Shown: piece after piece, positions 4,153-6,780 of the stretch
Numbering within the stretch: the stretch's first letter is position 1
Layout: each line of letters begins with the position of its first letter
Source of the DNA: Ktedonobacterales bacterium
Lineage (GTDB): Bacteria > Chloroflexota > Ktedonobacteria > Ktedonobacterales > JADMIN01
DNA length: 32,000 nucleotides
Direction: 5' to 3'
NCBI GenBank assembly: GCA_030167145.1
Contig: CP126532.1
Span: 1,350,001 to 1,382,000 of the forward strand
Program-made: the position numbers and the translations under genes
The notes under the pieces: generated by a model
Database searches by the model: none
Seen by the model: only the letters and a program-made list of their open reading frames with translations
Told to the model about the DNA's origin: nothing

Positions 4153-6780
4153 CTAGCGGCGGCCCACACCGTAGTTGGGCGCTTCTTTGGTAATGAGCAC
4201 GTCATGGGGGTGGCTCTCGCGCAGCCCCGCACTGGTGATGCGTACGAAGCGCGCCCGCGTCTTGAGCGCCTCGATGCTCTCAGAGCCAGTATAACCCATC
4301 GCCTGGCGCAGCCCGCCGACGAGTTGGAAGATCATCGAAGAGAGCGGCCCCTTGTACGGAACACGGCCCTCGATGCCTTCGGCGATGAGCCGCGACTCAT
4401 CCGACACCTCGGCCTGGAAGTAGCGGTCTTTGCTGTAGCTGCGGCGTTTCATCGCACCGATGGACCCCATGCCGCGATAGTCTTTGTAGCGTTCGCCTTG
4501 CGACATAATTAATTCGCCAGGGCTTTCCTCCACGCCCGCGAGCAGGCTGCCGAGCATCACGGTATCCGCGCCCGCCGCAATAGCTTTGGCGAGGTCGCCG
4601 GAGAATTGGATGCCGCCATCGGCGATGACCGGAATGCCGTAGGGTGCGGCGGCCTGGGCGCAGTCGAAGATGGCGGTGATCTGCGGCACGCCAGTGCCCG
4701 CGACGACGCGCGTTGTACAGATGGAGTTATGCACTATCGCGTTGTTGGCGATGAAGCTGTGGGTTGGGCAGTCCACTTCGATGTCGTAGACCGGCACAGT
4801 GACGCCCAGGTCGCGGCTCTCCAGCGCCTTGATGACCTGATAGTCTGTAAGATGGCGTTTCAGATGGGTGACGTTGAGTCGTGAGCGATAGCTCTCGCGG
4901 CAGTTTTCCGTCGAGGTGCCAACCAGTCCGCCCGCCCTCGCCGCCTCAGTCGAGGTGTTCGGGAAACTCCCCTGCGTGAGGGAGCAGAGCACATTGAAGA
5001 GTTCGACAAGTCGCGCTGAGGTGTTGTGGAAGCTGATTCTACCGTCACCCGCGATATGGCCGTCGCTATCGAGAAGGCCATCGAACAGGCCGCGCAGGTA
5101 GTCGGGATTCGCGCTGAGATAGCGGGTGGGCAGGTGCTTCTCGTGCCGTTTGCCGAACTGCGCGAAGAGACGTGCCCACTGCAGCGAATAGAAGTGGATG
5201 TTGATAATGCGCTCATTGGGAGTAGGCGTCACCTCTACGCCCGATACGTCCTTCAGACAGCGGATGAGCTTTGCGGCGATCTCTGCTTCGTGGCGGGCAA
5301 AGTACCACGAGACGTGCCCCTGCTCAGAGTTGCGCGACGGCGCGATGAAGGCATGGCCGTCGCCAAGGAACGCGCCGAAGAGGTAGCCCAATTCATAGGA
5401 ATCGGTGATCGTCGTGTGGTAACGGGCAACCTGCTTATCTTTCCGTACCGCGAACTCGCGCAGGTCTATCGCGAAACTTTCCGGCAAATCGAATTGGATT
5501 TGGCGGGGCAGAAGGAAGGCGTCACCTTTGGCGTCGCCGATCTGTTTCCAGTGCAATTTCGAGACGCCGCGCTTTGTCGGTTGCTCCAGCAGCGCCGCAT
5601 AGCCGCTCTTCGCCAGCGTCGTCGCCTTCACTGCACTGAGATCCCCAACCCAATAGTTGTGGTCGGGAGTGACGTGCGTCTCGCGATAGGAAGCGGTGTG
5701 ACGAATGGCCATCACGTCGCGCACACCGGTACACCAGGCCTTGAGAACCGTTACTGGCTCGCCGTGCATGTTGATGACGCGGTCGCCAGGCACAATGTCT
5801 TCGATGTTCTTATAGGTCGCGTTCGCCATTAGCACGCGCGTGCCAGCGGCGAAGCAGCCGGGACCGATGCCCGCCTTGATGCCTTGCGCGCCCGCCTGGA
5901 TCAGCGCTTCGGTGGCCTCGGCGGTGGCGACGTTGCCCGCGATGATCTGGACACGCGAGCCGAAGGATTGCGACAGCTTCTTCACGGCGTCAATGACCAT
6001 GCGCGAGTGGCCGTGCGAGGTGTCGAAGACCAGCACATCCACATCTTCGGCGATGAGGGCCTCGCAGCGCTCGAAGGCATCGGGACCGACGCCGACCGCT
6101 GCTCCCGCGCGCAGACGGCCCTGCGCGTCCTTGGCCGCGAGCGGGTACTGAATCTTCTTCTGGATGTCTTTGACGGTGATGAGACCCTTGAGCATGCCAT
6201 GCTCATCTACGACGGGCAGTTTTTCGACCTTGTAGCGGTGCAGAATCGCGTTGGCTTCTTCGAGGGTGGTGCCAACCGGCGCGGTAATCAGCCGCTCGCT
6301 GGTCATCAGCTCGCGGATGGGGCGGTCAAGGCTCTGCTCGAAGCGAATGTCGCGGTTGGTGAGGATGCCGACGAGGCGATCATGCTCGGTGATAGGGATG
6401 CCAGAGATGTGGTATTTCGCCATGACGGCCAGCGCCTGGCGCAGCGAATCTTCGGGGCCAAGGGTGATGGGGTCAATAATCATGCCCGATTCCGAGCGTT
6501 TGACCTTGTCTACTTCGGCGGCCTGATCCTCAATGGAGAGATTGCGGTGAATCACGCCGAGGCCGCCCTCGCGGGCCAGCGCGATGGCCAGCCGCGCCTC
6601 GGTGACGGTATCCATCGCCGCCGAGAGAATCGGGATGTTCAGCGAAATCTCTGGGGTGAGGCGCGTGGCCGTGTTGACATCGCCGGGGAGTACGTGAGAT
6701 TCAGCCGGAATGAGCAATACATCGTCAAAGGTGAGACCCTCTTTGCCAAACTTTTCCTGCCATGCCGCGTCGTTCGCCAC
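4153..6780 (-). CDS. guaB: IMP dehydrogenase, interrupted in-frame by an intein
   Basis: [11 protein letters not shown]-terminus, CBS pair, GIGPG|...|[10 protein letters not shown] catalytic loop and GGIQFSGD. The extein sum is about 498 aa. Start set at GTG 6780 with GAAGGGGG upstream. The ORF runs to GTG 6945, but the extra 55 aa have no IMPDH counterpart. Confidence 0.95.
4726..5856 (-). mobile_element. Class-1 intein with LAGLIDADG homing-endonuclease domain (377 aa) inside guaB
   Basis: Cys1 ([10 protein letters not shown], codon 5854-5856), block B TPDH, LAGLIDADG motifs [14 protein letters not shown] and [15 protein letters not shown], and C-terminal VYDIEV...AIVHN (Asn codon 4726-4728) followed by Ser+1. 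Codon positions were checked by hand. Confidence 0.9.

What the first reader, a model, noticed from the sequence alone, without database searches (positions are those of the whole stretch)
4726..5856. Complete LAGLIDADG intein splits the catalytic-cysteine loop of IMP dehydrogenase
The guaB ORF is about 380 aa too long. The host sequence reads ..IKAGIGPG | [10 protein letters not shown]....NNAIVHN | [10 protein letters not shown]. Deleting ORF residues 364-740 (377 aa) restores GIGPGSICTTR, the invariant IMPDH active-site loop whose Cys is the covalent nucleophile. The insert has every splicing element: Cys1, block-B TPDH, terminal His-Asn and Ser+1. It also has both LAGLIDADG motifs with their acidic residues, so it looks competent for both splicing and homing. 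The enzyme cannot have an active site until the intein is removed, which puts de novo GMP synthesis under post-translational control by protein splicing. I cannot tell from memory whether an IMPDH intein at this exact site has been catalogued.
Basis: partly seen in the sequence, partly recalled or inferred. Interest (0 to 1): 0.7.

Follow-up and report, generated by a model that had tools for sequence, protein, structure and literature searches.

The report
Homing intein inside IMP dehydrogenase gene
The guaB (IMP dehydrogenase) gene here is interrupted, exactly at its catalytic loop, by an ordinary self-splicing intein with a homing endonuclease; it belongs to a widespread family and sits at an insertion site known since 2009.

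Summary
Window 4726..5856 (minus strand) encodes a 377-aa in-frame insert in guaB. Removing it restores GIGPG|SICTTR and gives a 498-aa IMPDH that aligns without a gap to solved IMPDHs. The insert is a canonical class-1 intein: Cys1, block B T-P-D-H, His-Asn, Ser+1, plus a two-motif LAGLIDADG endonuclease. The AlphaFold model (pLDDT 94) matches TliVMA, PI-SceI and I-DmoI structures.

It is not unusual. 103 species genomes encode a relative; all 80 loci examined, from seven named phyla, have it at this exact site, as do two viral contigs. Splicing residues are invariant in 80/80, and the endonuclease acids are kept in 74/80. Of the 120 closest host relatives (Ktedonobacterales), 119 lack the intein and one has a 190-aa endonuclease-less mini-intein, the classic pattern of a mobile intein.

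The site itself is catalogued: the engineering split intein IMPDH-1 (Dassa 2009) has the junction GGG/SIC. I found no paper describing the contiguous LAGLIDADG form.

Regulation of GMP synthesis by splicing is untested and has no specific support. Verdict: a new member of a known kind, of low to moderate interest.

The parts
4153..6780 (-). guaB precursor gene (875 codons plus stop). The ORF stays open upstream to the GTG at 6945, but the GTG at 6780 is the likely start.
   Evidence: TIGR01302 IMP_dehydrog scores 588 bits against a cut-off of 481.5. Pfam IMPDH and two CBS domains match. The GTG at 6780 is preceded by AAGGGGG. The resulting 498-aa mature length equals that of the nearest intein-free homologues.
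5857..6780 (-). N-extein (308 aa): N-terminal part of the catalytic barrel plus the CBS pair, ending ...IKAGIGPG.
4726..5856 (-). Intein, 377 aa and 42.2 kDa: a HINT splicing domain split by a LAGLIDADG homing-endonuclease domain.
   Evidence: Pfam Hom_end_hint 35.7 bits (GA 32.1) and LAGLIDADG_3 24.1 bits (GA 22.5). AF2 model pLDDT 94.2, pTM 0.91. Foldseek matches TliVMA intein 7qsu at 1e-18, plus PI-SceI, PhoVMA, 2cw7 and PI-PfuI. 80 allelic loci were found.
5854..5856 (-). Cys1 codon (block A nucleophile).
   Evidence: Invariant in 80/80 family members.
5659..5670 (-). Block B T63-P64-D65-H66.
   Evidence: T63 and H66 are invariant in 80/80.
5353..5391 (-). LAGLIDADG motif 1, [13 protein letters not shown] (residues 156-168), with catalytic acid D166.
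   Evidence: D166 is kept in 76/80 family members and G167 in 80/80. A helix at 154-166 is followed by strands in the model.
5056..5097 (-). LAGLIDADG motif 2, [14 protein letters not shown] (residues 254-267), with catalytic acid D265.
   Evidence: D265 is kept in 78/80. The Pfam LAGLIDADG_3 hit covers residues 253-290. The model has a helix at 251-264.
4726..4791 (-). Blocks F and [23 protein letters not shown] (residues 356-377): D358, C363, H366, H376, N377.
   Evidence: D358, C363, H376 and N377 are invariant in 80/80. H366 is invariant in alignment A1.
4153..4725 (-). C-extein (190 aa plus stop), beginning with Ser+1 (4723..4725). The IMPDH catalytic Cys is at +3 (4717..4719).
   Evidence: The flank [10 protein letters not shown] is identical to the active-site loop of 3tsb. 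Ser+1 is present in 79/79 loci with a readable flank.
4702..4725 (-). Downstream half of the reconstructed empty (homing) site. Joined to 5857..5880 it reads ATCAAGGCGGGCATCGGTCCCGGC|TCCATCTGTACAACGCGCGTCGTC.
   Evidence: Empty sites were reconstructed for 80 alleles. First and second codon positions are about 90-100% conserved across phyla.
5857..5880 (-). Upstream half of the reconstructed empty (homing) site.

Best explanation
This is a canonical class-1, full-length intein: a HINT splicing domain with an inserted two-motif LAGLIDADG homing endonuclease. It is inserted in frame in guaB between Gly and Ser of the catalytic loop GIGPG|SICTTR.

Proposed mechanism:
- The gene is translated as a 95.5-kDa precursor in which the loop carrying the catalytic Cys (extein +3) is split by 377 residues.
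- The intein then removes itself autocatalytically. The steps are an N-S acyl shift at Cys1, transesterification to Ser+1, cyclisation of Asn377 assisted by His376, and an O-N shift.
- The products are a normal 53.3-kDa IMPDH and a free 42.2-kDa intein.
- The free intein, if its endonuclease is active, cuts intein-less guaB alleles at the conserved loop-coding sequence. It is then copied in by recombinational repair (homing).

Shown here: the anatomy, the predicted fold, the exact restoration of the host protein, family-wide invariance of the splicing residues, patchy distribution among close relatives, and old cross-phylum transfer. Inferred: actual splicing and actual DNA cleavage.
For: - Boundaries and restored loop.
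- HMMs: Hom_end_hint and LAGLIDADG_3 score above their gathering cut-offs.
- PDB sequence hits to PI-SceI.
- AF2 model with pLDDT 94.2. Its best Foldseek matches are endonuclease-containing inteins (7qsu 1e-18, PI-SceI, PhoVMA, 2cw7, PI-PfuI), and the endonuclease domain matches I-DmoI.
- All 80 genome loci have the intein at the identical site with no stop codons.
- C1, T63, H66, D358, H376 and N377 are invariant in 80/80. D166 is kept in 76/80 and D265 in 78/80, so splicing is constrained more strictly than cleavage.
- Of the 120 closest host homologues, 119 are 494-555 aa and so lack the intein. One (P0156) carries a 190-aa mini-intein with no LAGLIDADG motifs.
- Within phyla the intein is less conserved than the extein. 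Between several phyla it is more conserved: Chloroflexota-Myxococcota 63.7% against 56.4%, and Chloroflexota-Pseudomonadota 63.0% against 56.2%.
- The homing site is highly conserved at the DNA level.
- The same-site split intein IMPDH-1 has been shown experimentally to splice with the SIC junction (PMC7090010 and PMC11168065).
Against: - No experiment was done on this protein.
- Pfam Intein_splicing (28.5 bits, GA 35.8) and TIGR01445 (17.6 bits, cut-off 24.5) are below threshold, so this is a divergent sequence family.
- Intein nearest neighbours are mostly in the same phylum (51 of 55), and the closest relative is only 72% identical. Recent homing is therefore not demonstrated, and the endonuclease could be inactive despite intact acidic residues.
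- The intein's GC content (0.592) is only slightly below the host gene's (0.631), so the insertion is not recent.
Confidence: 0.9

Rival explanations
1. The intein splices, but its endonuclease is functionally dead or nearly so. On this reading it is now a vertically inherited passenger, kept only because imprecise loss would destroy the IMPDH active site.
For: - The closest relative is only 72% identical.
- Intein nearest neighbours are mostly within the same phylum.
- The endonuclease region is less conserved (58.6% mean pairwise identity, 50.6% for residues 73-148) than the HINT parts (about 73%).
- 6 of 80 relatives have already lost a catalytic acid, and one relative has lost the whole domain (P0156).
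Against: - The window copy keeps both acids (D166, D265), both glycine-rich motifs and a confidently predicted double alpha-beta-beta-alpha-beta-beta-alpha fold.
- 74 of 80 relatives keep both acids, which argues for continuing selection on cleavage.
- Between-phylum intein identity exceeds extein identity, which requires past mobility.
Confidence: 0.25
2. One reading: splicing is conditional (redox, metal, temperature or metabolite dependent), so the intein acts as a post-translational switch on GMP synthesis.
For: - The insertion lies in the catalytic loop, so the precursor should be inactive (inference).
- Several cysteines cluster in sequence around the splice junction: Cys1, the extein catalytic Cys at +3, and an intein Cys363 in block F. 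Cys363 is invariant in 80/80 IMPDH alleles and kept in both viral alleles, but replaced in the related RtcB intein.
- A second intein sits in SufB in the same window.
- Conditional splicing has been proposed or shown for other inteins (reviewed in PMC10663303 and PMC11409957, listed; I read only the abstracts).
Against: - There is no direct evidence.
- Insertion into active sites is the general rule for selfish inteins and needs no regulatory explanation (PMC4760082).
- 119 of the 120 closest relatives lack the intein, so it is dispensable for the lineage.
- The same-site IMPDH-1 intein splices fast and constitutively in vitro.
Confidence: 0.08
3. The gene is a dead or non-splicing copy (a pseudogene or assembly artefact), and another guaB supplies IMPDH.
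For: Only 32 kb of the genome is visible, so a second guaB elsewhere cannot be excluded. One family member in the protein database is a fragment (P0047, 309 aa).
Against: - The reading frame is uninterrupted for 875 codons, and the extein is 77-88% identical to functional-looking relatives.
- All catalytic residues of both the intein and IMPDH are intact.
- The same architecture is seen in 80 independent assemblies with no stops.
- There is no second IMPDH-like sequence in the window.
Confidence: 0.03

Closest known systems
IMPDH-1 naturally split intein (GOS metagenome; Dassa et al. 2009, PMC2677866; characterised in PMC7090010 and PMC11168065)
   Same: It has the same host protein and the same insertion point. 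Its native junction is GGG/SIC, against GPG/SIC here. It also has Cys1, terminal His-Asn and Ser+1. The N-terminal HINT region is 32% identical over 72 residues (E 5e-4).
   Different: IMPDH-1 is split into two genes separated by a free-standing Vsr-like endonuclease gene, in a phage-like context. The window intein is contiguous, carries an internal LAGLIDADG endonuclease and sits in a bacterial chromosome. The sequence similarity is too weak to show a specific common origin beyond general intein homology.
PI-SceI (yeast VMA1 intein) and the archaeal TliVMA, PhoVMA, PI-PfuI and PI-TkoII inteins
   Same: They share the architecture of a HINT splicing domain plus a two-motif LAGLIDADG endonuclease. 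They are the best structural matches (7qsu 1e-18, TM 0.69; 1vde 1e-14). PI-SceI is also the best PDB sequence hit (1e-5, with CFAKGT.. against CFAAGT..).
   Different: The host proteins differ (V-ATPase, RNR, DNA polymerase), and identity is only 11-18%. The window intein is smaller (377 aa against 454-537 aa).
Uncharacterised contiguous IMPDH inteins in public genomes, for example Roseithermus sacchariphilus CP030158, Deinococcus pimensis DSM 21231, Thiocystis minor DSM 178 and many Ktedonobacterales, Gaiellaceae and Gemmataceae MAGs
   Same: These are true alleles. They have the identical site, 56-72% identity over the whole 377 aa, and the same blocks and motifs. At least one JGI record is already named 'IMP dehydrogenase/GMP reductase/intein/homing endonuclease' (P0001).
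   Different: The window copy is a distinct sequence (at most 72% identity). None of these alleles appears to have been studied or described in the literature I could search.
RtcB intein P0108 (metagenomic)
   Same: It is the closest non-IMPDH relative, with 36% identity over the full length. Its local junction is similar: GILPG|S against GIGPG|S.
   Different: The host enzyme is different (RNA ligase RtcB), and Cys363 is not conserved.

Membership tests
Class-1 intein (HINT protein-splicing domain) | In-frame insertion whose precise removal restores a collinear, conserved host protein | tested here: met
   The spliced 498-aa product aligns without a gap to IMPDH 3tsb (647 bits) and to the intein-free relative P0121.
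Class-1 intein (HINT protein-splicing domain) | Block A nucleophile (Cys/Ser1) and block B TxxH | tested here: met
   C1, T63 and H66 are present in the window and invariant in 80/80 alleles.
Class-1 intein (HINT protein-splicing domain) | Block F/G: penultimate His, terminal Asn, and a Ser/Thr/Cys at +1 | tested here: met
   D358, H376 and N377 are invariant in 80/80. Ser+1 is present in all 79 loci with a readable flank.
Class-1 intein (HINT protein-splicing domain) | Matches curated intein HMMs above threshold | tested here: inconclusive
   PF05203 Hom_end_hint scores 35.7 bits, above its GA of 32.1. PF14890 Intein_splicing (28.5, GA 35.8) and TIGR01445 (17.6, cut-off 24.5) are below threshold.
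Class-1 intein (HINT protein-splicing domain) | HINT fold | tested here: met
   AF2 model pLDDT 94.2. The top 16 Foldseek PDB hits are all endonuclease-containing inteins, with E values from 1e-18 to 8e-11.
Class-1 intein (HINT protein-splicing domain) | Demonstrated protein splicing | not testable with these tools
   This needs expression, SDS-PAGE and MS with C1A and N377A controls.
LAGLIDADG homing endonuclease (monomeric, two-motif) | Two LAGLIDADG motifs, each ending in an acidic residue followed by Gly | tested here: met
   FLGDG (D166) and LDSDG (D265) are present. They are kept in 76/80 and 78/80 alleles.
LAGLIDADG homing endonuclease (monomeric, two-motif) | HMM and fold match | tested here: met
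   PF14528 scores 24.1 bits against a GA of 22.5, which is marginal. Foldseek matches I-DmoI at 2e-6, probability 1.0, target TM about 0.63.
LAGLIDADG homing endonuclease (monomeric, two-motif) | Site-specific cleavage of the intein-less allele | not testable with these tools
   The candidate 48-bp site was reconstructed.
IMPDH-1-type intein (Dassa 2009) | Same insertion point in IMPDH | tested here: met
   GGG/SIC (PMC7090010 supplement) against GPG/SIC.
IMPDH-1-type intein (Dassa 2009) | Split into two genes with a free-standing Vsr-like or GIY-YIG endonuclease between them | tested here: not met
   The window has a single uninterrupted ORF with an internal LAGLIDADG domain. The IMPDH-1 architecture is described.
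IMPDH-1-type intein (Dassa 2009) | Specific sequence relatedness | tested here: inconclusive
   32% identity over 72 N-terminal residues, pairwise E 5e-4. The C-terminal block matches only weakly.
IMP dehydrogenase GuaB (TIGR01302) | Equivalog HMM above cut-off, CBS pair, catalytic loop GxGPGSICTTR | tested here: met
   TIGR01302 scores 588.3 bits against 481.5. Two CBS stretches match. The loop is restored after excision.
Conditionally splicing (regulatory) intein | Splicing rate responds to a physiological signal in the native host | not testable with these tools
   The only circumstantial feature is the set of conserved cysteines (C1, C363, extein C+3).

The most novel reading that the evidence does not exclude
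The IMPDH intein might not be purely selfish. Cys1, the invariant block-F Cys363 and the extein's catalytic Cys+3 could form a reversible disulfide or metal trap. Such a trap would hold IMPDH as an inactive precursor under oxidative stress, working in concert with the SufB intein 11 kb away.

A related possibility concerns the Ser to Ala/Thr polymorphism at the +1 position of intein-free Ktedonobacterales alleles. This could be host 'immunity' to invasion, because Ala+1 cannot support splicing and it alters the homing site.
Probability: 0.07. Interest if true: 0.65.

Novelty: new member of a known kind. Interest (0 to 1): 0.25.

Why it matters
The practical consequences are modest.

1. Annotation. 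The gene should be called as one 875-codon guaB with an intein. Many database entries for this family are truncated or unnamed; for example P0047 is a 309-aa fragment named only as a homing-endonuclease-domain protein and P0036 is named 'hypothetical protein'.

2. Protein engineering. This family is the natural contiguous counterpart of the widely used IMPDH-1 split intein. It has the same Ser+1 and SIC junction, with 80+ diverse sequences from thermophiles and mesophiles. It could supply new orthogonal inteins or a new LAGLIDADG scaffold aimed at a very conserved 48-bp site.

3. Intein evolution. The Ktedonobacterales alleles show an empty site, a full intein and a mini-intein side by side, together with cross-phylum and viral copies. 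That makes them a tidy natural system for studying the homing cycle.

It does not open a new biological principle unless splicing proves to be regulated.

Tried and rejected
- **Identifying the source genome.** The best intein hit is 72% in GTDB representative genomes and 71% in the 5.8-billion-protein set. The window's own genome is therefore not in these collections, so I ran no further search on it. From extein similarity (77-88% to Ktedonobacterales MAGs) it is a member of Ktedonobacterales (Chloroflexota).
- **Looking for a second guaB.** None is in the 32-kb window. Some Actinomycetota loci have an adjacent 33-40% identical IMPDH-related paralogue, which is not a substitute copy.
- **Literature.** Six searches combining intein with IMPDH, guaB, IMP dehydrogenase, monophosphate dehydrogenase or Ktedonobacter, and 'IMPDH intein' as a phrase, found only the split IMPDH-1 intein. 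The supplements of Novikova et al. 2015 and Dassa et al. 2009 are not held, so a listing there cannot be excluded.
- **Isolated phages and plasmids.** Only generic LAGLIDADG inteins in other host genes, at 22-29% identity.
- **Cys1/Cys363/Cys+3 proximity.** This could not be measured because the structure tool returns no coordinates.
- **dN/dS on the endonuclease domain.** Not attempted, because synonymous sites would be saturated at 72% or lower amino-acid identity.
- **Recent acquisition.** Considered and rejected. GC and GC3 of the intein (0.592, 0.751) are close to those of the host gene (0.631, 0.790).
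Full report
**Observation**

The minus strand carries one long ORF, 4153..6945. Its product matches IMP dehydrogenase in two pieces. TIGR01302 scores 588 bits against a cut-off of 481.5. Pfam IMPDH has E 2e-152, and there are two CBS domains.

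Between the pieces lies a 377-residue insert, [10 protein letters not shown]...[10 protein letters not shown]. The flanks read IKAGIGPG | [10 protein letters not shown].

The most plausible start codon is the GTG at 6780, preceded by AAGGGGG. This gives the following products:
- precursor: 875 aa, 95.5 kDa
- intein: 377 aa, 42.2 kDa
- mature enzyme: 498 aa, 53.3 kDa

The in-silico spliced protein aligns from end to end with Bacillus anthracis IMPDH (3tsb, 647 bits). There is no gap at the junction and the loop [15 protein letters not shown] is identical. It also aligns residue for residue with an 88%-identical, 498-aa, intein-free relative (P0121).

**What the insert is**

Sequence evidence:
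- Pfam Hom_end_hint (35.7 bits, GA 32.1) and LAGLIDADG_3 (24.1 bits, GA 22.5) pass their cut-offs.
- Intein_splicing and TIGR01445 match but fall below their cut-offs.
- The best solved-structure sequence match is PI-SceI.

Structural evidence:
- An AlphaFold2 model built on 27 homologues is very confident (pLDDT 94.2, pTM 0.91).
- Its best Foldseek matches in the PDB are all endonuclease-bearing inteins: TliVMA 7qsu at 1e-18, then PI-SceI, PhoVMA, 2cw7 and PI-PfuI.
- These are followed by the monomeric LAGLIDADG enzyme I-DmoI for the central domain.

**The family**

The intein is far from unique. A search of 5.8 billion proteins returned 245 relatives. Nearly all of the 120 listed carry an IMPDH domain.

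One scan of GTDB species representatives found 103 genomes encoding a relative, of which 80 loci were fetched. They come from Ktedonobacterales and other Chloroflexota, Actinomycetota, Planctomycetota, Rhodothermales, Deinococcota, Myxococcota and Pseudomonadota. Cultured strains among them include Roseithermus sacchariphilus, Deinococcus pimensis, D. marmoris and Thiocystis minor.

In every one of the 80 loci the intein:
- sits at the same point, GxGPG|SICTTR;
- is free of stop codons;
- begins with Cys and, in the 79 loci where the end is readable, ends with His-Asn followed by Ser.

Across the window plus 79 aligned alleles, C1, T63, H66, D358, H376 and N377 are invariant. The endonuclease acids are kept in 76/80 (D166) and 78/80 (D265). 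That is the expected asymmetry: splicing is indispensable to the host, whereas cleavage matters only to the element. The HINT parts are also more conserved (about 73% mean pairwise identity) than the endonuclease domain (59%).

**Mobility**

Of the 120 proteins closest to the spliced host enzyme (77-88% identity, Ktedonobacterales where named), 119 are 494-555 aa long and so have no intein. The remaining one, P0156, has a 190-aa mini-intein at the same site. It keeps the HINT blocks but has no LAGLIDADG motifs. Empty, occupied and endonuclease-deleted alleles thus coexist in one order, which is the textbook homing-cycle picture.

Within phyla the intein diverges faster than IMPDH, for example 62.7% against 73.1% in Actinomycetota. 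Between several phyla it is more similar than IMPDH:
- Chloroflexota-Myxococcota: 63.7% against 56.4%
- Chloroflexota-Pseudomonadota: 63.0% against 56.2%

The overall correlation between intein and extein identity is weak (rho 0.39). This requires horizontal transfer after the phyla separated. However, nearest neighbours mostly stay within a phylum and the best match to the window is only 72%, so the transfers are old.

The reconstructed target site is almost invariant at first and second codon positions across all hosts. This explains how one endonuclease lineage can colonise such distant genomes.

Two IMG/VR contigs (107 kb and 67 kb) carry a CBS-less IMPDH-like gene with a 44-45% identical intein at the same site. 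Their neighbours are phage-type nucleotide-metabolism genes: dCMP deaminase, a MazG-like pyrophosphatase, a nucleotide kinase and an HNH endonuclease. Viruses are therefore plausible vectors. Isolated phage genomes and plasmids hold no close relative.

**Comparison with what is known**

IMPDH was reported as a new intein host in 2009. Dassa et al. found three environmental loci in which IMPDH is 'fractured' by a split intein with a free-standing Vsr-like endonuclease gene between the halves (PMC2677866). One of these, IMPDH-1, became a standard fast, orthogonal split intein (PMC7090010, PMC11168065). Its native junction is listed as GGG/SIC. That is the same position in the catalytic loop as GPG/SIC here.

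The insertion site is therefore catalogued, and splicing in this extein context has been shown experimentally for a same-site intein. The window intein differs in being contiguous, carrying a LAGLIDADG endonuclease and residing in a bacterial chromosome. It shares only 32% identity with IMPDH-1 over the first 72 residues.

I found no paper that describes the contiguous form. At least one JGI record already names it 'intein/homing endonuclease' (P0001), and the supplementary tables of the large intein surveys were not available to me. I therefore classify it as a new member of a known kind.

**The regulatory claim**

The catalytic Cys sits three residues after the splice junction, so the precursor should be inactive. 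This is an inference, not a test.

That alone does not make splicing a control point. Insertion into the most conserved, functionally critical sites is the general habit of inteins. It is usually explained by target conservation and by the lethality of imprecise loss (PMC4760082). Nearly all close relatives do without the intein, and the same-site IMPDH-1 intein splices quickly and constitutively.

The only hints compatible with conditional splicing are circumstantial:
- an invariant Cys363 in block F, alongside Cys1 and the extein Cys+3;
- a second LAGLIDADG intein in SufB 11 kb away.

I give the regulatory reading about 0.08.

**Limits**

- Splicing and DNA cleavage are inferred, not shown.
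- A second guaB elsewhere in the genome cannot be excluded; none is present in the window.
- The source organism is not in the searchable collections.

Noticed in passing
window 17112..18272 (-), within ORF 16086..18701: There is a second intein in the same window. SufB (SUFBD_core 297 bits) is interrupted by a 387-aa intein with a LAGLIDADG domain, at junction AGVGAQYE | CLSGDSRV...GLIVHN | SEVIYHKV. It is only 21% identical to the guaB intein.
   Followed up: partly
P0156 (protein; no window coordinates): A close relative of the window's GuaB (rank 36 of 120 by extein score, among hits about 83% identical) carries a 190-aa mini-intein at the same site. It retains the HINT blocks but has no LAGLIDADG motifs, so it is an endonuclease-deleted allele.
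   Followed up: yes
P0121-P0240, the position equivalent to window 4723..4725: Among the 120 closest relatives (119 of them intein-free), the residue at the intein +1 position is polymorphic: Ser in 54, Ala in 59 and Thr in 6 (GxGxG|AICTTR and so on). All intein-containing alleles have Ser. Ala+1 cannot support splicing and it changes the homing site, so these could be invasion-resistant alleles.
   Followed up: partly
P0108: The nearest non-IMPDH relative of the intein (36% identity, full length) sits in RtcB, at a junction with similar flanks: GILPG|SMG against GIGPG|SIC. This suggests ectopic movement between look-alike sites.
   Followed up: partly
L081:4368-6629 and L082:976-3135 (IMG/VR contigs): Putative viral contigs carry a CBS-less IMPDH/GMP-reductase-like gene with the same-site intein (44-45% identity). 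In L081 the upstream ORF 124-2226 also has a LAGLIDADG domain and weak similarity to ribonucleotide reductase, so it may be another intein-bearing gene. An HNH endonuclease gene follows it.
   Followed up: partly
L019 (Gemmatales MAG), C-extein flank: The host loop after the intein reads SISTTR instead of SICTTR, so the IMPDH catalytic Cys is replaced by Ser. This could be a sequencing error, an inactive copy or a paralogue.
   Followed up: no
window 4768..4770 (intein residue Cys363): The cysteine in the block-F loop (VDCPTH) is invariant in 80/80 IMPDH alleles and in both viral alleles. It is replaced in the RtcB relative. Cys42, Cys291 and Cys319 are also 94% or more conserved. Their role is unknown.
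   Followed up: partly
P0047 (Deinococcus multiflagellatus) and P0036 (Iamia sp.): Public annotations of this family are often fragmentary. One is a 309-aa ORF that starts inside the intein and ends early, named 'DOD-type homing endonuclease domain-containing protein'. Another is a 504-aa 'hypothetical protein'. These are likely gene-calling problems or decayed copies.
   Followed up: no
L043, L056, L067, L068, L079 (Actinomycetota loci): A 33-40% identical IMPDH-related paralogue lies next to the intein-containing guaB. This resembles the guaB2-guaB3 pairing known in actinobacteria (that comparison is from my own knowledge).
   Followed up: no
window 1276..15840: Gene neighbourhood of guaB: an amine oxidase-like flavoprotein (1276..2598, -), a GT87 membrane glycosyltransferase (2641..4068, -), citrate synthase (7178..8389, -), an XPB/ERCC3-type helicase (9972..11831, +) and a PAC2-family protein (11879..12937, +). 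There is no obvious functional link to guaB.
   Followed up: partly
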